From Patescibacteria group bacterium (GTDB lineage Bacteria > Patescibacteriota > Minisyncoccia > Phycocordibacterales > UBA12079): a DNA stretch of 64,000 bases. Made by a program: the position numbers and the translations under genes. The DNA is taken from positions 11,155 through 75,154 of the forward strand of contig JAHITU010000024.1 of the NCBI GenBank assembly GCA_018817595.1, written 5' to 3'. Below, piece after piece: positions 689 through 53,906 of this stretch. The first letter of the stretch is position 1, and every line of letters begins with the position of its first letter. Below the pieces are notes generated by a model. The model ran no database searches and was not told the origin of the DNA. It was given only the letters and a program-made list of their open reading frames with translations.

Positions 689-1921
689 TCAAACAAAAAC
701 AACCTCCCTCTCCAACCTCAATCCTGTTTTTTCAAAAACATCTTTTTCTATTTTTTGGGCTAATTTTTTGACTTCTTCACAAGTTCCTTCACCTTTATTC
801 ACCAACATCAAGGCATGTTTGTTATAAACTCCCACTTCCCCTTCAAAAAATCCTTTCCATTCAAATTGGTCAATAAACCAGGCAATAGGAATTTTAATAT
901 TTTCTCCATCTTCAAAGAAAGGTGTTTCGGGAAATTTTTCTTTTAATTTTTCAAATTCATTTTTAGAGATAATCGGGTTTTTAAAAAAGCACCCAGCCGA
1001 TCCTAAACCTTCACTCAAGGGATAATTCTTCCCTCGAATTTCTATAATCTTTTTTCGAACATCTTTTACCTTTAAATCTTTTTTATTTTTTAAATCCTCT
1101 AAACCTTTGTAACCTAGGTTAGCTTTTCTGGACTGCTTCGTCGTTCCGCTTCGCTCCACTCCTCGCAGAGACGATTGTGGAGCAATCGTTACGGACGAGG
1201 CTTCGCCTCGTTCGTCTTCACTAGATAACCTACCAATAAATTGAGACGGATTTTTCTTCGAAAAATCCGTTGGCGAAAAGCTTTGTTTTTCGTCTTCGCG
1301 AGCGCAAGCGAAGCGATCCAGTGTTTCATCATCTAAAATTCTTAGTCTCAAAGCAACCCGAACAACCACCCAATTCGGTTCTTTTTTAAAAACAGAATTC
1401 CTATAACCGAATTCACATTCTTTATTGAGAAGCCTTTTCATCTCTCCATTTTCCATATCAAACACCTCCACCCAATCAACCACATCTTTCATTTCCACTC
1501 CAAAAGCTCCACAATTTTGCACAACTCCCGCTCCCACAGTCCCTGGAATCCAAGACAAACTTTCCAAACCCCACAGATTTTTTTTAGCCATTTTGTAAGC
1601 CAAATCATCCAAAAGCATCCCTGCCCCCACCACAACCTCCACAAGATCATCACTTAGTACTCCGACTACTAAGTCCTTATTTTCTATTTTTAGGACCAGA
1701 CCGTCGAAGCCATTATCTGAAATTAAAAGATTAGAACCTCCTCCTAAAATAAAAACAGGGAGTGAATTTTGTTTAGCAAAATTCACTCCCTCTTTTAAAT
1801 CTTCAATATCTTTAACTACTCCAAAATACTTAGCCTCTCCACCTATCTTAAAGGTGGTATATGGGGCTAATTTAATTTTTTCTTTTATTTCCATAATTTT
1901 TTTATTAACTTGGTTACTCAA
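689..1921 (-). CDS. murB: UDP-N-acetylenolpyruvoylglucosamine reductase MurB, carrying an in-frame insertion of about 70 aa
   Basis: N-terminal FAD-binding region (ILGGGSNLLISDNGFDGLVLKI), central WGLE..IPGTVGAG..QNCGAFG, and C-terminal GSAGCFFKNP are MurB hallmarks. At 410 aa it is longer than the typical 300-345 aa. The extra segment maps to a GC-rich repeat at 1127-1322. Confidence 0.8.
   Translation of the reverse strand: MSNQVNKKIMEIKEKIKLAPYTTFKIGGEAKYFGVVKDIEDLKEGVNFAKQNSLPVFILGGGSNLLISDNGFDGLVLKIENKDLVVGVLSDDLVEVVVGAGMLLDDLAYKMAKKNLWGLESLSWIPGTVGAGVVQNCGAFGVEMKDVVDWVEVFDMENGEMKRLLNKECEFGYRNSVFKKEPNWVVVRVALRLRILDDETLDRFACAREDEKQSFSPTDFSKKNPSQFIGRLSSEDERGEASSVTIAPQSSLRGVERSGTTKQSRKANLGYKGLEDLKNKKDLKVKDVRKKIIEIRGKNYPLSEGLGSAGCFFKNPIISKNEFEKLKEKFPETPFFEDGENIKIPIAWFIDQFEWKGFFEGEVGVYNKHALMLVNKGEGTCEEVKKLAQKIEKDVFEKTGLRLEREVVFV
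1127..1322. repeat. GC-rich composite palindromic repeat (TCTGGACTGCTTCG...CGAAGCGATCCAG termini) embedded in frame in murB
   Basis: This stretch is about 55-60% GC in a roughly 30% GC background. It shares terminal motifs (ctggactgcttcg / cgaagc..tccag) and internal motifs (cctcgcagagacg, gacgaggcttcgcctcg) with copies at 10906-11030, 21003-21128, 47334-47457 and 51375-51478. Confidence 0.6.
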
Positions 1922-4265: not shown

Positions 4266-4512
4266 ATTTAATTCACAAAATTAAGAGCAGTCATCCGAAG
4301 ATGACTGCTCTTAATAGAGAAATGCTTGGCACAGATAGCCCTAGAATAACTCTAGGTGAGTGCGGTGAACGGACCACCACGGTGATTCGGAAACACTTGC
4401 TCTCTTTTATTGCATTTTAGCTAGGTTATTGCACCAAGGATTCCTCCTATGTTCATTATACACCAATTTAAAATTAACAAGCAAATCAATTGTGAATAAC
4501 TCAACCATTAAA
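4266..4512 (-). ncRNA. Candidate structured leader or small RNA between two terminators, upstream of the O-antigen-ligase/TPR gene
   Basis: Minus-strand TATAAT at 4455-4460. Locally GC-rich (about 50%) core at 4320-4440. A 13-bp hairpin capped by a UUCG tetraloop (4284-4313 on minus: aagagcagtcatc-UUCG-gatgactgctctt). Long-range pairing ccttggtgca...tgtgccaagc. Ends at the 4228-4265 terminator. No protein-coding potential. Confidence 0.3.
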
Positions 4513-6622: not shown

Positions 6623-6716
6623 GATAATTAGTTAAAAGTTTGTAAAGTCCATAAAGTCAAAAGTCAAAAATTTGCAAAGCAAATTTTTTCTTAATTTAAA
6701 ATTTAAAATCTAAAAT

Positions 6717-10826: not shown

Positions 10827-10905
10827 AATGTTTTAGCTTATTAGCTTATAGCTGTTAGCTTTTAGGAAAAATTTACTCTGTAAATTTTCCTTGTTAATTC
10901 TAGAC

Positions 10906-11030
10906 CTGCCTACCGGCAGGCAGATTGCTTCGTCGTGACCTCCTCGCAAAGACGAAAATCTTTGCTTTTTGAAACGAATTTTGCTTTGCAAAATTCGTCT
11001 CTGCGAGGAGCCTGCGACGAAGCAGTCCAG
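10906..11030. repeat. GC-rich composite palindromic intergenic repeat of about 125 bp, between rpsH and rplF
   Basis: cctgcctaccggcaggcag + attgcttcgtcgtgacctcctcgca ... tgcgaggagcctgcgacgaagcagtccag. Nested inverted repeats (gcttcgtcg/cgacgaagc, cctcctcgca/tgcgaggag, cgaatttt/aaaattcg). About 60% GC. Confidence 0.65.
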
Positions 11031-21002: not shown

Positions 21003-21128
21003 TTGCCTGCCCGACAGGCAGATTGTTTCGTCGTGACCTCCCCGCAAAAACGAAAAGCTTATCTTTTCGTAACGAATTTTACTCAATAAAATTCGTCTCT
21101 GCGAGGAACCTGCGACGAAGCAGTCCAG
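21003..21128. repeat. GC-rich composite palindromic repeat between rplX and rplE, co-linear with the 10906-11030 copy
   Basis: cttgcctgcccgacaggcag + attgtttcgtcgtgacctccccgca...tgcgaggaacctgcgacgaagcagtccag. Confidence 0.65.
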
Positions 21129-21927: not shown

Positions 21928-21991
21928 TTTATTAGTTATTAGCTTATAGCTTTTAGGTTTTTAGGAAAAACTTGCGAAGCAAATTTTTACT

Positions 21992-22011
21992 CCTGCCCGC
22001 CGGCAGGCAGG
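21992..22011. repeat. 20-nt GC palindrome CCTGCCCGCCGGCAGGCAGG, fused to the AT-rich palindrome upstream of rplN
   Basis: Near-perfect dyad. The same unit occurs at 22328-22347, 51325-51344 and 53875-53894, and in extended form at 29455-29490, 34105-34144 and 42171-42216. Confidence 0.6.
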
Positions 22012-22291: not shown

Positions 22292-22362
22292 ATTATTATT
22301 TAAAATTTGCGAAGCAAATTTTTACTCCTGCCTGCCGGCAGGCAGGTTATAGACTTTCGACT

Positions 22363-23037: not shown

Positions 23038-23147
23038 ATTATTACAATTAGTTGAAAGTCCTTAATGTCGAAAGTCGAAAGTCTTTTTTAAAAATTTACG
23101 AAGTAAATTTTTACTTTATGGACTTTATGGACTTTACAGACTTCTCA

Positions 23148-24265: not shown

Positions 24266-24355
24266 GATTTTAGTTATTTAGTTATTTGGGTCATTAGGTT
24301 TTAGGAAAAATTTACTTCGTAAATTTTTTCTTAAATCTTAAATCATAAATATTAT

Positions 24356-28699: not shown

Positions 28700-29454
28700 A
28701 TTTTTTTTCTAAAAAATTAAAACTAATAATGAATTATTATCATATCCCCAAGACTTAATTGAATGGTCAAAGAAAATCAACCACCAAGAAATCTCATTGG
28801 TTTTATGATTTTACGACCTTTATTTTAGTATCTAAAAATACCATAACTATATAATATCATTATATGAAATGAAAAATATATGAAAACTGTGGATAAAATG
28901 ATGTCGGCTCAAAACAAAAGAAATCTTTGCTGAAAAACTTTTTCCTTCGGAACAACTTAAAGACATCCGACCTCATTTTTTATAATATTAAAATTAATAT
29001 CTAAAGATGACAGTTGTTTTAATTAAGAGGTCGGATGTCACCCAAACCACTCCCAGTGGGTCGGGTGAAATTTTTTCATAACTAAAGTAAAGAACAGTAA
29101 TTGTTTTGTTAAAAGTTTTAATGCTTGTATTTTATTTAGGTTTAACTTTTTTAAGGGATGGAAGAAGACGAAAAGCTTTAGCTTTTCGTCCACGAATTTT
29201 GCTTCGCAAAATTCGTCTTTACGAGAAATGAAGCGTAGCGAAATGACGAAGTAATCCAGAAATAAACAAAAAAGATAAACCTCAGTCTTACTTTTTCACT
29301 AAAAGTTTTAATGCAAGGATTTCTTTTATTTTAAACCTTAGTAGGGTGACGGGCGAGGCTTCGCCTCGCCCGTCTATAAATAAAAAAATCAACGGCTATG
29401 CTCGTAGCCATTGATTTTTTGTTTATTTTTTTAACTTTACAGACTTTAAACTTA

Positions 29455-29490
29455 CCTGCCCACGCCTGCCGGCGCGCAGGGGCAGGCGGG
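29455..29490. repeat. Extended GC palindrome CCTGCCCACGCCTGCCGGCGCGCAGGGGCAGGCGGG
   Basis: Near-identical copy at 34105-34144. Reverse-orientation copy at 42171-42216. Confidence 0.6.
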
Positions 29491-31519: not shown

Positions 31520-31635
31520 AATTATATTAAGTTATTAGGAAATTAGGTTGTTAGGTTGTTAGGAAAAAATTTACGAAGTAAATTTTTTTCTTAAATCCTA
31601 AATCTTAAATCCTAAATCTAAATTATTTTAATAAT

Positions 31636-32127: not shown

Positions 32128-32389
32128 ATATTTAGGTTATTAGCTTATTAAGATTTTAGATTATTAGGAAAAAACTTGCTTAGCAAATTTTCATAATCTA
32201 TACCCAATTTACTAACTTCCTTATAAAATTTAAAAAGTCTTGAATAATCAAGACTCAGAGAAAAACACATCTACATATTTAATATATTAGTGTTTCGACC
32301 TAAATAGGGTTTATAAAATGGATTTTTAAAAGTATCCTTTTAAACCTATCTTCTCTGATCTTTACGAATACTATTTAATCATTTTTTAT

Positions 32390-33612: not shown

Positions 33613-33888
33613 TTGCAAAAAACCGAAATATAAATATAATAGTCATCAGCAGTTCAAGAGAGGCTGATGGTCCAGCAAAAGGCGAGGTCCGAATCTCGGG
33701 GACAATACTCCCTTTAAACTCTCTTTTTCTTCGATCAAGACAAGTCTGGTTGCCGAGGTCATTCCCTAAAATGACTGACGGTCTCCAAAGGCACCCCGCA
33801 ACAATAGTGGTGTCTACATCGCAATCAAACCATCTTGATCAAATCCCTCTTGGATACCTTTTCACGGTATCCTAGAGGGATTTTTTTT
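33613..33888 (+). ncRNA. Candidate small RNA 1: promoter TTGCAA-N16-TATAAT (33613-33640), about 240-nt transcript, terminator 33845-33888
   Basis: Good -35/-10 match. GC-enriched structured body (ggctgatggtcc..gaggtccgaatctcgggg). Ends with a 14-bp interrupted stem ccctcttggatacc/ggtatcctagaggg followed by T8. Stop codons in all frames. Confidence 0.45.
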
Positions 33889-34207
33889 ATCTATTTTCTT
33901 ATTTTTCAAAGGACGAAGCCTCGCTTCGTCCTTCTTCTTCACCCTAAAAAGTTAAACCCAAATAAAATACAGACATTAAAATTTTTAATGAAGAGTTACT
34001 GTCTTTTGCTTTAGCAAAAGGAAAATTTCACCCGACCCATACTCCCACAACAAAGAATATTTGTATAATATGGTTTTTAAAATGGTTGGGCTTGGGTTTG
34101 GATCCTGCCTGCCCACGCCTGCCGGCGCGCAGGGGTAGGCAGGTTTAAAAACATATTATACAAATATTCTAACAACTCATTTTATCCACAACTTCTTTTA
34201 AAATTTC

Positions 34208-43162: not shown

Positions 43163-46100
43163 CTATTTTGAAATAGTTTGAGCTGAGCTTCCGCCTGATG
43201 GCAATCCGTCTACTAGGTATCCGTTTGACCAATCTACATGAGCTAGAGCAGAAGTAGTTGTAGCGTGACCTGACCAAACAAAGTCATTGTTTGTATCAGC
43301 ATCTACAGTTGTTTCTGTTCCCATCAAAGTTGCCATTGCTGGGTAAGCTGCATCTCCTGAAATCTTAGTTGTAACATTTCCTGAGAATGTACCTGTTCCA
43401 GCTGTTAATGTAGTGTCTCCTTCTACTTTAAAGTAGTAAGTAGCACCTGCTGGGATATTCAAAACTGAACTAAATTCAACTTCGTTATCACCAGTTACTA
43501 GAGTAGCTGCTGCAGTTGCAAGTAATCCGTTTGTGTATCCAGATACTGGATTTGAGAAACTTGAATCTGTGTAAGCATATACTTCTAGGTTAGTTACAGT
43601 TGTTGTTCCTGATACAGCTGAAGCTGATGAAGTAGCAACATTTACAGTAACTTGGTTAAGTCCGATTCCATCACTTAATCCATCAGCATCTTTAGCTGTA
43701 ATGCTGAATTTGTACAATTCAACATCTGTTGATGAGATTAACACTGTGTTAGAAACATTAATCTTAGCAAATTCTGGATAAGCTCTGAATACTCTCACTC
43801 CATCAACAGCAGTATCTGATGCTGATGTTGTGTTGATAGTTGTTCCTGATTGTGCTCCTACTCCTTGAGTAGATGCAGTATAACCACCGTCAAAGTTTAC
43901 TTTCAATAATGCTCCTTGTGTTCCAACTTGAGATGTTCCGATCTTTGCAAGATCTCCTTTAATTGTCATAACTTTTGATCCATCTTTTGGAATCATAAAG
44001 TCAGTTGTCAAAGTAGATGTTGCGTAATCTGTACTTGTGAATGTAGCAACACCAACTTGTGTTGTTCCATCCCACAAAGTAACTCTAGTTAAGTCTGAAG
44101 GTGAACTTGAAGCAGCAGTCAATTGTAGACCTAATTTCTTCAAGTTAATAGCTTCATTTGTTCCTGTGAATTTCAATTTAGCAAGAACTACATCTGTTGT
44201 TCCAGCAGCAACAATCTTGTATGAAGGACTTGAGTCGTCTTTAACTACTGTGAATGTACCACCTGTTGTAGCTGTCATTATTTGTCCTGATCCTGTAGGA
44301 GTAGCTGTTGTGATAGTAGATCCTGAATCAAGACCTGATCCTGTTTGAGCAGCTGTCATACTCCATAGGTAAGTGTCTCCACTTGCTGAAGCTGAAATGT
44401 TACATTTTAGAGCAATTGTTTTTAGTGTTCCTTTAGGAATTACTAGTCCAGCACTGTCTAATGTAAATGTTTGAGCTGCAGTTTCACCTGAAGCAATGTC
44501 TTTGATGTTTGAACCTGTGTTCAAAGCTGTTGTTCCATCAAATAATTGACATCCTGTTTGATATTCTGAATTTGCTCCTGTAACTGTGTTATTTAATACC
44601 AATGTATTAAATTTAACATCTTCTCCTGATGCTGTTGCATCGAATTGGAAATTAGCCATTACAAATCCTTGTGCACCAGCTACCACGTTTTGTGCTACTG
44701 GGCTTGCGGATGTGCTGATTACAGCTGTTCCAGTTTTCAATGTCATTGTGTTTGAAGTCAATGTTGCATCAGGTGTAGGTGTAATTGAGTTACCTGTTGT
44801 TTGACCTGTTACTGTTGTCCAATCATCAGTAGGATTTGTGTCAATAATAATTGTTTGATCATTAACAAAATTTGTTCCTAATTGACCTTTCAATGTGTAA
44901 GTTCCTTTTCCTAATTGGAAAGTAACTGTATCTGTGAAAGTAATTGTTCCTGTTGTTTGTGCTGATACTGAAGTATAAGCTGCATCAACTGGACCAGCTA
45001 CTACTGAACCATTAGCATCAACCAAAGAAACATTAGTGATGTCGTCTACTTGACCTACAGCTGAACTAGCTGCAGCTGACGAACCAGTAAGTGTTACGTT
45101 GAATACCATTGAAGCCACTGAGATTGCTTCTCCTTTAGCTTCAATATCGAATCCACCTAATACTTGGTTGGCAACATTTTCAGCAATATTTTGTGCTTCT
45201 ACTGTTGTTGATTTTGATCCTTGTAATGAACCATTTGAAACAGTTACTACTGAAGCATCATACCAAGGTGTTCCTGTACTGAATCCTGTTCCTGTTGAAG
45301 CAGGAGTAATTCCATATCCGTAAGTTTCACCTGTTACATAAAGATCTGTATTTTTATACAAATCAAATGCAATTGTTCTACCTGATCCTGAAATGATATC
45401 TCCTTTAATAGTGATTTCTTTTGCAAGACCTTTATCTACAACAAGTCCTGTTCCAAATGTAGATGTATAGTATTTACCATCGGATGATACCATTACATCG
45501 TAAGCAACTCCGTCAACATAAGTCTTAAGGTTTCCTAAGTCTGATGCTGAAACTGAACCTGATTGATTCCATCTAATTGAATGAAGTCTAATCTTTTCAG
45601 CTGATCCAGCTGTTACTTTTATAGATGAGAATGTGTATCCGTCTACTCCAACTTCTTTTGTAGCTGTTGCATTAGGATCGTTCACTCCTCGAGCTGGTGT
45701 AGCTGATCCAATTGATAGGGAATCATTCATTGTGTGAGCTGTTCCCATGATTGGAAGAGCACCATTAACAGCAGCTGAAGTATTTACTCCAATCACTGAA
45801 AGTGATCCAACTTGTCCTCTGTATGAAGCCATTGTTGCTGCTGCAACCATGTTTCCAGCAATAGTTACTGTTTTTGAAGTTCCAGCTTTCACTGTGAAGT
45901 TTTCTCCAACTGTAGCTTGGTGTAGTGAGTTCAAAGTTTTAGCAATTCCGATTTGTGTTCCATCTTCATCCAGTAAGATGATTCCTGCGAACGCTGCATC
46001 TGCTGCTAAACCAGTTCTCTCTATTAATAGAGAGTTAACTACTACATCTCCATCAGCACTAGCTGTAAGAATAACTTTTGTGAAAGGAATTCTTGCTGCA

Positions 46101-47333: not shown

Positions 47334-47457
47334 TTCTGGACTGCTTCGCAAGCTCGCAGAGACGGTCACAAAGCGACCTTTACGGTTCGCTTTCAGCGAA
47401 CCGTCCCTGCCTGACGGCAGGCAGGTTTGCGAGGAGTTTGCGACGAAGCAATCCAGA
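47334..47457. repeat. GC-rich composite palindromic repeat with the CCTGCCTGACGGCAGGCAGG module placed centrally
   Basis: ttctggactgcttcgcaagctcgcagagacgg...cctgcctgacggcaggcagg...gcgacgaagcaatccagag. The internal minus-strand and plus-strand ORFs here are spurious. Confidence 0.6.
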
Positions 47458-48464: not shown

Positions 48465-48595
48465 TCTGGATTGCTTCCCCAACACTTTGTTGCAACAATG
48501 TTAATAAAGTTTAAAAAAAATAAACAATAATCTATAAAATAATAGTAAGTAATTTAATTCAAAGTACTGGGTCGCAAAGACGAAAAGATTTAAAC
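48465..48595. mobile_element. MITE-like element, copy B
   Basis: See copy A at 42300-42445: shared 26-nt left end and a related right end. Confidence 0.5.
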
Positions 48596-51324: not shown

Positions 51325-51478
51325 CCTGCCTGCCGGCAGGCAGGTCCATAAAGTCAAAAGTCGAAAATCAAATCTCTGGATTGCTTCGCTGACGCTCGCA
51401 AAGACGAATTTTTCAAAATAAAATTCGTTAACGAAAATCTATGATTTTCGTCTCTACGAGCGTCAGCAAGGAAGTCAA
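51325..51478. repeat. GC palindrome CCTGCCTGCCGGCAGGCAGG plus an AAGTC-pentamer tract plus a composite GC-rich repeat unit
   Basis: cctgcctgccggcaggcagg, gtccataaagtcaaaagtcgaaaatc, and tctggattgcttcgctgacgctcgcaaagacgaa...cgtctctacgagcgtcagc. Confidence 0.6.
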
Positions 51479-53746: not shown

Positions 53747-53906
53747 TTTCTTCTCCTTAAATAAAAAGTTAAAGAATTATTTTTATGAATAACTAGCTAT
53801 TGGCATATTACATTAAAACCCCTCAAAATACAACAAAAAAACAATTGCTTTGGCAACTGTTTTTTGTTTTCATGCCTGCCTGTCGGTAGGCAGGTTTTAA
53901 TGATTC

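What the first reader, a model, noticed from the sequence alone, without database searches (positions are those of the whole stretch)
1127..1322. In-frame insertion of a GC-rich repeat into the essential murB gene (Rickettsia-RPE-like event)
The murB ORF is intact at 410 aa, against 300-345 aa for characterised MurB. About 65 codons (RFACAREDEKQSFSPTDFSKKNPSQFIGRLSSEDERGEASSVTIAPQSSLRGVERSGTTKQSRKANLGYKG) are encoded by a roughly 195-bp segment that carries the diagnostic termini and internal modules of the intergenic repeat family. The reading frame is preserved, so the element seems to have added a hydrophilic loop to a cell-wall biosynthesis enzyme without disrupting it. This is the same phenomenon that is well known for Rickettsia palindromic elements.
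Basis: partly seen in the sequence, partly recalled or inferred. Interest (0 to 1): 0.75.

Follow-up and report, generated by a model that had tools for sequence, protein, structure and literature searches.

The report
Palindromic repeat translated inside murB
A 194-base hairpin-forming repeat of the kind that litters this tiny bacterium's intergenic DNA sits in frame inside its essential cell-wall gene murB, has been inherited that way by at least three related lineages, and is read through as a floppy extra loop; this is the "Rickettsia palindromic element" phenomenon, here seen in the Candidate Phyla Radiation.

Summary
Window 1128-1321 is a 194-nt, 51% GC palindromic element in a 32% GC genome. 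It carries the termini (CTGGAYTGCTTCG, CTCGCARAGACG) of a repeat family with about nine intergenic copies in the window. It lies in frame in an otherwise normal type-I murB.

- **Empty site:** the closest homologue (82% identical) lacks the insert.
- **Filled sites:** two other homologues carry the same insert at the same site. One has a nested 20-nt palindrome; the other has a 78-nt internal deletion.
- **Translation:** all four indels within the element are multiples of three, so it is very probably translated.
- **Protein:** AlphaFold gives a confident MurB fold with the insert disordered. The insert sits in the type-I "tyrosine loop", 5-6 residues before the conserved Tyr.
- **Conservation:** stems are conserved more than loops. 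Synonymous divergence in the element is 3-5 times lower than in the rest of murB.
- **Family:** the terminal module is a hairpin tagged CGTC at one end and CCA at the other, found across phyla, resembling the CGTC-type REPs that include Rickettsia RPE-4 and RPE-6.

Verdict: a real, old, in-frame insertion of a REP-dimer-like composite. It is a new member of a known kind, apparently not yet described in Patescibacteria.

The parts
689..1921 (-). murB (UDP-N-acetylenolpyruvoylglucosamine reductase, type I). Mechanical ORF is 410 aa from TTG 1921; the likely true start is ATG 1894 (401 aa).
   Evidence: AlphaFold mean pLDDT is 87 and pTM 0.84.
1128..1321 (-). In-frame palindromic composite element (194 nt, 51% GC). 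It encodes residues 201-265 (LDRFACARED...TTKQSR) in 410-aa numbering.
   Evidence: Inverted termini. RNA minimum free energy is -82.3 kcal/mol, z = -5.7. The segment is absent from orthologue P0002 and present in P0003 and P0008. pLDDT is below 50 for residues 214-263.
1291..1321 (-). 5' (coding-strand) terminal REP-like module CTGGA-TCGC-TTCG-CTTGCG-CTC-GCGA-AGACG. Local stem is TCGC/GCGA.
   Evidence: The TCGC/GCGA variant is shared by all three filled orthologues and by no intergenic copy in the window.
1128..1173 (-). 3' (coding-strand) terminal module, read on the + strand as CTGGA-CTGC-TTCG-(21 nt)-CTC-GCAG-AGACG. It is inverted relative to the 5' module, so the CGTC heads face inward (head-to-head dimer).
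1171..1292 (-). Interior of the element: hairpins hpD 1171-1189, hpC 1191-1216, hpB 1246-1270 and hpA 1274-1292, plus an AT-rich non-palindromic spacer 1217-1245. Two GAAGACG direct repeats (within 1285-1300 and 1206-1222) bound the 78 nt deleted in orthologue L008.
   Evidence: hpB shows a T-A to G-C compensatory change between the window and L004. Relatives of hpB sit in the intergenic copies at 10973-11000, 21070-21098 and 29192-29218, and a relative of hpC at 29349-29375.
1322..1342 (-). RILDDET: seven codons just upstream of the element. They are shared by the three filled orthologues and absent from the empty-site orthologue. They are either ancestral loop sequence or co-inserted sequence.
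1103..1126 (-). KANLGYKG: native MurB tyrosine-loop residues, including the near-invariant Tyr271. This is the equivalent of E. coli Tyr190 and P. aeruginosa Tyr196.
   Evidence: Y271 present in at least 90% of 120 homologues; PMC3689657.
10924..11030 (.). Intergenic family copy: a head-to-head dimer whose left end abuts a small palindrome at 10905-10924.
21022..21128 (.). Intergenic family copy, 81% identical to the 10.9-kb copy.
29160..29259 (.). Intergenic family copy. Its right module has the TTAC/GTAA stem variant.
47336..47456 (.). Intergenic family copy with both termini. A small palindrome is nested directly after the CGTC head (47406-47425).
51376..51476 (.). Intergenic family copy. 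Its right module is degenerate.
42312..42428 (+). Single terminal-type module with a roughly 90-nt AT-rich interior. A sister copy lies at 48466-48582 and a further module at 42829-42925.

Best explanation
Window 1128-1321 is a copy of this genome's palindromic intergenic repeat family. It consists of two inverted REP-like terminal modules, each a small hairpin flanked by conserved CTGGA/TTCG and CTC/AGACG boxes (a CGTC head and a CCA tail). These modules enclose four further hairpins and a spacer.

The element entered murB in a common ancestor of at least three Patescibacteria lineages. It landed in the beta12-alpha5 'tyrosine loop' at the start of domain III, in the one orientation and frame (of six) that has no stop codon. 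Because murB is needed for peptidoglycan synthesis, only such an open, loop-located insertion could survive.

The ribosome reads through the element. It adds a disordered, hydrophilic loop of about 65-70 residues to an otherwise intact enzyme.

Since insertion it has evolved in place:
- a nested insertion of a 20-nt GC palindrome in one lineage;
- in-frame internal deletions between short direct repeats in another;
- near-complete deletion in a third (the 'empty' site).

Its hairpin stems are held more constant than either its loops or the gene's synonymous sites. The nucleic-acid structure therefore appears to be under constraint, while the peptide is largely a by-product.

Shown: family membership, the open frame, orthologous filled and empty sites, indels in multiples of three, the disorder prediction, and stem conservation. 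Inferred: translation, a single ancestral insertion followed by loss, tolerance by the enzyme, and the reason for stem conservation.
For: **Family membership**
- Motif counts are 10 against 0.04 expected, and 13 against 0.07 expected.
- blastn to intergenic copies gives E down to 1.6e-7.
- The architecture is shared with copies at 10.9, 21.0, 29.2, 47.3 and 51.4 kb.

**Hairpin nature**
- RNA fold is -82.3 kcal/mol, z = -5.7; DNA fold z = -4.2.
- The local module stem co-varies: CTGC/GCAG, TTGC/GCAA, TTAC/GTAA and TCGC/GCGA in the window.
- In 141 cross-phylum copies the Y/R pair is T-A 137, C-G 3, T-G 1, C-A 0.

**Insertion rather than native domain**
- P0002 (82% identical, three independent contigs) lacks it.
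- 117 of the 120 nearest MurB sequences (119 database homologues plus the window's own) lack it.

**Orthologous filled sites**
- P0008/L008 and P0003/L004 have the same site, orientation, unusual TCGC/GCGA 5' module and non-palindromic spacer.
- P0003 was assembled on 9 contigs from several samples, so this is not an assembly artefact.
- The hpC-hpD junction sequence occurs in the metagenome collection only in P0003's murB. The composite is therefore locus-specific, not a circulating unit.

**Translation**
- The four in-element indels are +21, -18, -78 and -12 nt, all multiples of 3.
- The frame is open in all three orthologues, whereas 3% of shuffles are open.
- Only 1 of 6 frames is open.

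**Structure**
- pLDDT exceeds 90 on both sides and is below 50 for residues 214-263.
- Target-normalised TM-score is 0.89-0.93 to type-I MurB structures.
- The insert lies between strand E184-195 and Tyr271, in the loop described as the mobile Tyr loop of type-I MurB (PMC3689657).

**Selection against genic insertion**
- 1 of 10 copies is genic although 79% of the window lies in ORFs of at least 100 aa (p = 7e-6).

**Nucleic-acid constraint**
- Element dS is 0.18-0.24 against 0.68-0.97 in the rest of murB, at similar dN.
- Paired positions are 88.6% identical and unpaired 67.9% (p = 0.002).
- hpB shows a compensatory T-A to G-C change.

**Secondary loss**
- In the NJ tree P0002 and P0008 are sisters with the window sequence outside them, and two of the three carry the insert.
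Against: - There is no direct evidence of translation or of enzyme activity. Both are inferred from sequence.
- No target-site duplication or transposase link was found, so the insertion mechanism is unknown.
- The NJ tree places P0003 in a different clade from the window sequence, with insert-less MurBs between them. A single gain then needs several losses, unless the poorly resolved 60-68%-identity nodes are wrong.
- The seven codons RILDDET travel with the element and are unexplained.
- The insert sits next to a substrate-contacting tyrosine, so 'harmless' is an assumption.
- Low dS could reflect a younger age of the element through lateral transfer. However, the spacer and loops are as diverged as the gene.
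- The dN/dS estimates rest on only 33-59 codons.
Confidence: 0.78

Rival explanations
1. The hairpin array is the selected feature. It would act as a cis-acting nucleic-acid element inside murB: an mRNA-stabilising or ribosome-pacing structure, or a binding site for a host or transposase protein. The peptide would be the price paid for it.
For: - Stems are conserved above synonymous-site level, with a compensatory change in hpB.
- Some pairs are G-U only on the coding strand, for example the L008 3' module and the L008 hpC stem.
- The same gene carries a second, independent intragenic hairpin (1757-1791) conserved in 9 orthologues, with 4 compensatory pairs.
- Intergenic REPs are generally thought to act as RNA elements (PMC3733652).
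Against: - The closest relative and most homologues do without the element, so it is dispensable.
- One lineage has deleted 78 nt, including two hairpins.
- No specific function can be named from the sequence.
- Stem conservation is also expected if hairpin-breaking mutations promote deletion or mistranslation.
Confidence: 0.15
2. The element inserted independently at a preferred target site in the three lineages (a hotspot), rather than once in an ancestor.
For: - P0003 is separated from the window/P0008 pair by insert-less sequences in the NJ tree.
- CPR MurBs show recurrent inserts at three loop positions.
- The small GC palindrome repeatedly lands at the same position inside REP modules.
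Against: - All three share the same orientation and frame, the same 7 upstream codons, the same rare TCGC/GCGA module variant, the same order of internal hairpins, and (window and L004 only; L008 has it deleted) a homologous non-palindromic spacer.
- No other copy of this composite exists in the window or in the metagenome collection.
Confidence: 0.07
3. The segment is now an exapted, functional lineage-specific MurB domain, for example an interaction or regulatory loop.
For: - It has been retained over divergence to 67% MurB identity.
- In the best-conserved stretch the peptide SSVTIAPQSSLRG is identical in three lineages.
- omega is below 1 in some comparisons (0.28-0.42).
Against: - It is predicted to be disordered.
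- omega in the element (0.28-0.81) is higher than in the rest of the gene in four of the six element-versus-rest comparisons, while dS is depressed. The conservation is therefore at the nucleotide level.
- Large in-frame deletions and complete loss are tolerated.
- The conserved peptide stretch coincides with hairpins hpC and hpD.
Confidence: 0.05
4. It is an artefact or a dead gene: a chimeric assembly through a repeat, or a murB pseudogene whose frame is open by chance.
For: Repeats do cause mis-assemblies in metagenomes. The window's own protein is on record from a single contig.
Against: - Both halves of murB flank the element in the correct order and frame.
- Orthologous filled sites were assembled independently from other samples by other assemblers, 9 contigs for P0003.
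- The rest of murB is under strong purifying selection (omega 0.10-0.19 in comparisons with the window; 0.29 for L008-L004).
- Catalytic and FAD-binding residues are conserved.
Confidence: 0.02

Closest known systems
Rickettsia palindromic elements (RPE)
   Same: Both are short palindromic repeats with intergenic and intragenic copies. Both insert in frame into unrelated, often essential genes, are read through as extra peptide segments compatible with the protein fold, and are shared or lost among related species (PMC10969869; PMC3733652).
   Different: - The host phylum differs: Patescibacteria rather than Alphaproteobacteria.
- No sequence comparison with RPE consensus sequences was possible here.
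- In this window only 1 of about 10 copies is genic, whereas nearly half the RPEs of three families are in ORFs.
- The murB copy is a locus-specific composite that has accreted and lost modules, not a uniform unit of about 150 bp.
CGTC-tagged REPs and their head-to-head dimers (Di Nocera et al. 2013; these include RPE-4, RPE-6 and Neisseria dRS3)
   Same: Both have a CGTC motif at one end of a small hairpin and a CCA(G) tail at the other. Both are predominantly arranged head-to-head, lie mostly in intergenic positions close to gene ends, and have occasional intragenic in-frame copies encoding 20-80 residues. No dedicated transposase is known for either.
   Different: - The published families have 8-9 bp stems beginning with A-T pairs and 4-5 nt loops. 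Here the co-varying stem is only 4(-5) bp (YYRC/GYRR), and the 'loop' is 10-30 nt or more and itself variable.
- Patescibacteria are not among the phyla reported.
- The consensus figures of the paper could not be read, so sequence-level identity with CGTC-1 to CGTC-4 is untested.
REPIN / RAYT systems
   Same: Two inverted REPs form a larger hairpin as the unit. A Y1 (HUH) RAYT-like transposase gene lies in the same window (40604-41287), flanked by palindromes.
   Different: The palindromes around that gene (CACTTGGACACCGGGTGTCCAAGTG) are a different family from the murB element. No link between this transposase and the CGTC-type modules was shown.
MITEs (for example Correia/NEMIS, ERIC, QMITE)
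   Same: It is small, non-coding for a transposase, has terminal inverted repeats, is multicopy, and can fuse in frame with host ORFs (PMC10969869).
   Different: There is no target-site duplication and no parental IS with matching ends. The structure is modular and hairpin-based rather than simple TIRs around a core.

Membership tests
MurB, type I (host gene) | FAD_binding_4 plus MurB_C domains, and an equivalog-level match to UDP-N-acetylmuramate dehydrogenase | tested here: met
   Pfam 76 and 83 bits. NF000755 scores 294 bits against a cutoff of 277. PDB phmmer gives 8e-63 to 4JAY.
MurB, type I (host gene) | [quoted passage not shown] | tested here: met
   Best structural matches are the type-I enzymes 4JAY, 3I99 and 1MBB, with target-normalised TM-score 0.89-0.93. 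A near-invariant Tyr271 is present. The definition comes from PMC3689657.
Window's intergenic palindromic repeat family | Terminal boxes CTGGAYTGCTTCG and CTCGCARAGACG in inverted orientation at both ends | tested here: met
   The boxes are at 1128-1140 and 1162-1173 (+), and at 1309-1321 and 1291-1302 (-). Their enrichment is 10 against 0.04 and 13 against 0.07.
Window's intergenic palindromic repeat family | Internal ACG...CGT(C) hairpin modules shared with other copies | tested here: met
   Relatives of hpB lie at 10973-11000, 21070-21098, 29192-29218 and 51395-51430, and a relative of hpC at 29349-29375.
CGTC-tagged REP superfamily (Di Nocera 2013) | Unpaired CGTC motif at one end of the hairpin | tested here: met
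   On the head strand the modules read CGTCTCTGCGAG and CGTCTTCGCGAG.
CGTC-tagged REP superfamily (Di Nocera 2013) | Short unpaired CCA tail at the other end | tested here: met
   Modules end ...GCAGTCCAG or ...GCGATCCAG.
CGTC-tagged REP superfamily (Di Nocera 2013) | Stem of 8-9 bp starting with complementary A-T pairs, and a loop of 4-5 nt | tested here: not met
   The co-varying stem is 4 bp (YYRC/GYRR). The interior is 10 to more than 30 nt.
CGTC-tagged REP superfamily (Di Nocera 2013) | Predominantly head-to-head dimers | tested here: met
   The murB copy and the copies at 10.9, 21.0, 47.3 and 51.4 kb have their CGTC heads facing inward. Cross-phylum copies L067, L068, L098 and L116 are likewise arranged.
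Rickettsia palindromic elements | Sequence match to one of the RPE consensus families | not testable with these tools
   No RPE consensus sequences were available. The only link is the literature equivalence RPE-4 = CGTC-4 and RPE-6 = CGTC-1.
Rickettsia palindromic elements | In-frame insertion in a functional gene, with an open frame through the palindrome and an empty site in relatives | tested here: met
REPIN/RAYT system | Two inverted REPs forming one hairpin unit | tested here: met
   The termini pair in the minimum-free-energy fold. Each module also forms its own local stem.
REPIN/RAYT system | A cognate single-copy RAYT flanked by the same REPs | tested here: not met
   A Y1_Tnp/RAYT-like gene exists at 40604-41287 (PF01797, E = 9.6e-8). 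It is flanked by a different palindrome family. Only 64 kb of the genome was examined.
MITE | Terminal inverted repeats, small size, no transposase ORF, multiple copies | tested here: met
MITE | Target-site duplication flanking the element | tested here: not met
   Flanks of the murB copy and of the intergenic copies show no direct repeat.

The most novel reading that the evidence does not exclude
Patescibacteria may harbour an active or recently active ecosystem of nested palindromic repeats: CGTC-type dimers, a 20-nt GC palindrome and RAYT-associated hairpins. These would be maintained at the nucleic-acid level even inside essential coding regions. On this reading the murB insert is a dual-use segment in which the hairpin array is the selected feature and the protein loop is a by-product. 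The roughly 30-nt terminal module, conserved from Legionella and Methylobacterium to Bacteroidales and CPR, would be recognised by a conserved and still unidentified protein partner.
Probability: 0.2. Interest if true: 0.7.

Novelty: new member of a known kind. Interest (0 to 1): 0.5.

Why it matters
- **Scope of the phenomenon.** In-frame 'selfish DNA in proteins' is textbook for Rickettsia but is treated as a curiosity. Here it appears in a streamlined CPR genome, and independent palindromic inserts recur at three loop positions of MurB across many CPR lineages. The phenomenon may therefore be a general route of protein-loop evolution in reduced genomes.
- **Annotation.** NCBI calls this protein only 'FAD-binding protein'. 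Such inserts inflate protein lengths and seed spurious ORFs.
- **A natural experiment.** The filled, decayed and empty allelic series of an essential, druggable enzyme tests how much insertion the MurB tyrosine loop tolerates.
- **Possible function.** The stem-biased conservation gives a testable case of nucleic-acid structure constraining a coding sequence.

Tried and rejected
- **Rfam scan** of the whole window at gathering thresholds gave no hit, so the element is not a known RNA family. There are no tRNAs.
- **Phage collection blastn** of the insert gave no match.
- **Protein search with the insert peptide alone** found no candidates because of the word-index limitation, and cost one search.
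- **Exact-protein look-up of the 410-aa ORF** found nothing on record, because databases use the 401-aa start.
- **Other GC islands inside large ORFs** (15.8, 25.3-25.8 and 37.7 kb) were inspected. They are ordinary Cys/Gly/Pro-rich coding sequence, not repeat copies.
- **Peptide-signature scan of all ORFs of at least 100 aa** found no other genuine CGTC-type genic copy in the window.
- **Genic copies among 119 cross-phylum loci:** in low-GC loci all hits lie at ORF edges, and none is clearly internal.
- **Intrinsic terminator inside the insert:** none was flagged. The only terminator-like hairpin in murB is the separate 1757-1791 structure.
- **Intein or intron readings** were rejected. There are no splicing motifs, the frame is open, and indels come in threes.
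- **Gene conversion from other genomic copies** as the cause of low dS was rejected. The rare TCGC/GCGA module variant is shared by the three orthologues and by no intergenic copy.
- **Literature searches** for REP, MITE or palindromic insertions in CPR/Patescibacteria, and for the module sequences themselves, found nothing relevant.
Full report
**1. What is at the coordinates**

The minus-strand ORF 689..1921 is intact. It is a type-I MurB by four tests:
- Pfam FAD_binding_4 (residues 35-164) plus MurB_C (288-410).
- NCBIfam PRK00046 at 294 bits, against a cutoff of 277.
- phmmer E = 8e-63 to P. aeruginosa MurB 4JAY. The match is split in two, with query 204-285 facing only chain residues 198-214.
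- The AlphaFold model matches 4JAY, 3I99 and 1MBB with target-normalised TM-score 0.89-0.93.

Homologues and the database copy of this protein (P0001, 'FAD-binding protein', Patescibacteria group bacterium, 121-kb contig) start at ATG 1894. The real length is therefore probably 401 aa, not 410.

The window is 32% GC. The segment is 51% GC.

**2. The segment is a member of the intergenic repeat family**

Read on the + strand, the segment starts CTGGACTGCTTCG...CTCGCAGAGACG (1128-1173). It ends CGTCTTCGCGAG...CGAAGCGATCCAG (1291-1321). These are two inverted copies of one module, 194 nt in all.

| Box | Matches (up to 1 mismatch) | Expected from shuffles |
|---|---|---|
| CTGGAYTGCTTCG | 10 | 0.04 |
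| CTCGCARAGACG | 13 | 0.07 |

The other copies are all intergenic. They lie at 10.9, 21.0, 29.2, 42.3, 42.8, 47.3, 48.5 and 51.4 kb, with a fragment at 61.2 kb.

blastn of the insert against the window gives E = 1.6e-7 and 1.9e-6 to two of these copies. The interior hairpins also have relatives in them:
- ACGGATTTTTC-GAA-GAAAAATCCGT
- GACGAACGAGGC-GAA-GCCTCGTCCGT
- ACGATTG-CTCCA-CAATCGT

The whole element folds into a closed multi-hairpin structure. As RNA it reaches -82.3 kcal/mol (z = -5.7); as DNA, z = -4.2.

Only one of ten copies is genic, although 79% of the window lies in ORFs of at least 100 aa (p = 7e-6). This is what purifying selection against genic insertion predicts.

**3. It is an insertion, and an old one**

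Among the 120 nearest MurB sequences (the window's own plus 119 database homologues), 117 lack the segment. The closest, P0002, is 82% identical and appears on three independent contigs. It reads ...LKL-SEGN-KANLNYKGLEDL... where the window has ...LRL-RILDDET-[element]-(R)KANLGYKGLEDL....

- **P0008 (locus L008).** It is the sister of P0002. Its insert is shortened by a 78-nt deletion between two GAAGACG direct repeats, plus a 12-nt deletion.
- **P0003 (locus L004).** It is 67% identical, comes from GCA_900089805.1, and was assembled on 9 contigs from several samples. Its insert carries a nested CCTGCCTGCCGGCAGGCAGG palindrome (+21 nt, peptide PACRQAG) and an 18-nt deletion.

All three share the seven upstream codons RILD(D/N)ET, the rare TCGC/GCGA variant of the 5' module, and the same order of hairpins; the window and L004 also share a homologous non-palindromic spacer (it is deleted in L008).

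The hpC-hpD junction sequence occurs in the metagenome collection only in P0003's murB. The composite is therefore locus-specific, not a circulating unit. One ancestral insertion followed by decay, accretion and loss is the economical reading.

In the NJ tree P0002 and P0008 are sisters, with the window sequence outside them. The empty site of P0002 is therefore most simply a secondary deletion. Its four residual codons (AGTGAAGGTAAT) may be a scar of the element's right end, but 12 nt cannot prove that.

P0003 falls in another, poorly resolved clade. Either further losses occurred or the tree is wrong at 60-68% identity.

**4. It is very probably translated**

- The frame is open in all three orthologues. 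Only 3% of shuffles of the element are open over 65 codons, and only one of the element's six frames is open.
- The four indels within the element (+21, -18, -78, -12) are all multiples of three. The chance of that is about 1%.
- The rest of murB is under strong purifying selection, with omega 0.10-0.19 in comparisons with the window and 0.29 for L008-L004. The gene is therefore functional.

**5. Where it sits in the protein**

AlphaFold, run with 120 aligned sequences, gives mean pLDDT 87. Both flanks exceed 90, and residues 214-263 fall below 50.

The insert lies between the last strand of domain II (E184-195) and Tyr271, which is present in at least 90% of homologues. This is the beta12-alpha5 'tyrosine loop' that defines type-I MurB. 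It moves on substrate and NADP+ binding; the equivalent residue is Tyr196 in P. aeruginosa and Tyr190 in E. coli (PMC3689657).

The site is therefore a flexible, solvent-exposed loop, but one next to the substrate channel. In P0003 the tyrosine itself and about 15 following residues have been deleted. P0006 and P0010 also lack the tyrosine. The loop is thus evolutionarily plastic in this clade.

**6. What is conserved is the nucleic acid**

Nei-Gojobori estimates:

| | Element | Rest of murB |
|---|---|---|
| dS | 0.18-0.24 | 0.68-0.97 |
| dN | 0.06-0.20 | 0.11-0.23 |
| omega | 0.28-0.81 | 0.16-0.29 |

Ranges cover the three pairs that carry the element (window-L004, window-L008, L008-L004).

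Between the window and L004, positions paired in the fold are 88.6% identical. Unpaired positions are 67.9% identical (Fisher p = 0.002). The unpaired positions are thus no more conserved than the gene (75.8%). This argues against a recent lateral origin of the whole segment.

hpB shows a T-A to G-C compensatory change.

The rare TCGC/GCGA module variant is inherited in all three orthologues and matches no intergenic copy. Gene conversion from other copies therefore does not explain the conservation.

Why stems are held constant inside an ORF is not established. I rate an RNA- or DNA-level function at about 15%.

**7. What the module is**

Each terminal module is itself a hairpin. Its four-base stem co-varies in the window as CTGC/GCAG, TTGC/GCAA, TTAC/GTAA and TCGC/GCGA.

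The hosts include:
- Legionella and Coxiellaceae;
- Methylobacterium, Bradyrhizobium and sphingomonads;
- Nitrosomonas and Nitrospina;
- Bacteroidales and Tannerellaceae;
- Christensenellaceae and Deferribacteraceae;
- Peribacteria and several Patescibacteria.

In these copies the allowed Y/R positions pair as T-A 137, C-G 3, T-G 1 and C-A 0.

The module has a CGTC head, a CCA(G) tail and a head-to-head dimer arrangement. These are features of the 'CGTC-tagged REPs' of Di Nocera et al. That paper assigns Rickettsia RPE-4 and RPE-6 and Neisseria dRS3 to the same superfamily, reports no dedicated transposase, and lists intragenic in-frame copies encoding up to 82 residues (PMC3733652).

The published stem and loop dimensions (8-9 bp, 4-5 nt) are not met. 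I therefore file the element as 'resembling' that superfamily, not as a proven member.

RPEs are the textbook case of in-frame palindromic insertion (PMC10969869).

**8. The phenomenon is wider in CPR MurB**

Inserts of at least 6 residues cluster at three loop positions among the nearest MurBs.
- P0002 carries the 20-nt GC palindrome in frame, as TCLPAGR. This was confirmed at DNA level in L001. P0010 has the same peptide at the same alignment position, but its DNA was not checked.
- P0022 (locus L135) carries two further in-frame, near-perfect hairpins (-57 and -52 kcal/mol). One ends in the family's CGAAGCAATCCGG terminus.

I found no paper describing REP-like or palindromic in-frame insertions in Patescibacteria/CPR. 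The searchable library is limited to open-access text.

**9. Verdict**

This is a real, inherited, in-frame insertion of a REP-dimer-like composite into the tyrosine loop of an essential enzyme, read through as a disordered loop.

It is a new member of a known kind (RPE or intragenic REP). It has three unusual aspects:
- the host phylum;
- a natural series of filled, nested, decayed and empty alleles;
- stem-biased conservation inside a coding sequence.

Interest is 0.5.

Noticed in passing
window 1757-1791 (inside murB, about 105-140 nt after the ATG): A 15-16 bp perfect hairpin followed by a T-rich tract (terminator-like) lies inside the coding sequence for the conserved FAD-domain segment EGVNFAKQNSLPVFILGG. 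It is conserved in all 9 murB orthologues examined (56-82% aa identity). 97% of cells are paired, and 4 pairs show compensatory double changes, some of which alter amino acids (only 1 of 500 shuffles reaches this). G-U pairs in one orthologue suggest an RNA-level structure. Its core GAATTTTGC-NNN-GCAAAATTC is the same as a hairpin module of the intergenic repeats. Its function is unknown; it could be an attenuator, an mRNA stabiliser, or a domesticated REP.
   Followed up: partly
window 40604-41287 (-), with palindromes at 40567-40603, 41089-41123, about 41300-41330, 41341-41377 and 43009-43042: This is a Y1/HUH transposase-like (RAYT-like) gene: PF01797 E = 9.6e-8, with motifs YHVYNRG, HYH and GVLFQGRYKS. 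It is flanked on both sides by the palindrome CACTTGGACACC(C)GGTGTCCAAGTG followed by TTATCCACAG. It carries the same palindrome in frame inside itself (peptide QLGHPVSKL).

The family has more than 12,000 homologues. Of the 28 (of 151) sequences in which both sites could be extracted, roughly ten show near-identical peptides at the two intragenic sites (for example LRSEASQL twice, FGGPTSK twice, LGNPVSK twice), and the peptides differ between proteins. This suggests that two embedded copies of each genome's own hairpin are evolving in concert.
   Followed up: partly
window 10905-10924, 21992-22011, 22327-22346, 42841-42860, 47406-47425, 51325-51344, 53875-53894; variants at 29461-29480, 34114-34133 and 42190-42221: A second repeat family is present: the 20-nt GC palindrome CCTGCCTGCCGGCAGGCAGG. 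It is often just downstream of genes. It is repeatedly nested inside the CGTC-type modules, directly after CGTC at 47406 and in L004's murB insert, and inside CTGGA^TTGC at 42841. It is also inserted in frame in the murB of P0002 (TCLPAGR, checked at DNA level) and in P0003's insert (PACRQAG). The matching peptides in P0010 (TCLPAGR) and P0068 (MPAGRQ) were seen at protein level only.
   Followed up: partly
loci L009-L127 (genome-contig scan): The roughly 30-nt module CTGGATTGCTTCG-N(3-15)-CTCGCAAAGACG is nearly identical across distant phyla: Gammaproteobacteria, Alphaproteobacteria, Betaproteobacteria, Bacteroidota, Firmicutes, Deferribacteres, Nitrospinae and Patescibacteria. It usually occurs in inverted pairs. 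Such cross-phylum conservation of the unpaired boxes suggests a conserved protein partner or repeated horizontal spread.
   Followed up: partly
window 21957-21991, 22292-22326, 23081-23115, 24297-24331, 31559-31587, 32161-32195, 54657-54691, 55525-55559, 6668-6697: AT-rich hairpins AAATTTGC-GAAG-CAAATTT (and the TTTAC/GTAAA variant) recur in the spacers between ribosomal-protein genes. They are often preceded by TTAGG/TTAGC-rich tracts. They may be terminators or attenuators, or another repeat family.
   Followed up: no
window 4290-4410, 33640-33890, 34620-34790: These are GC-rich, ORF-free stretches with stem-loops and T-tracts in an AT-rich genome. They look like structured RNA genes but match no Rfam family at gathering threshold, and no tRNA or tmRNA was found.
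   Followed up: no
locus L135 3241-3327 and 3706-3777 (murB of P0022): Two separate in-frame, near-perfect long hairpins (about 29-bp stems, -57 and -52 kcal/mol) are inserted at two different loop positions of one murB gene in another Patescibacteria genome. The second ends in CGAAGCAATCCGG.
   Followed up: partly
window 42047-43163: A 1.1-kb ORF-poor region next to the RAYT-like gene is packed with members of at least three palindrome families. It may be a repeat 'nursery' or a decayed mobile element.
   Followed up: no
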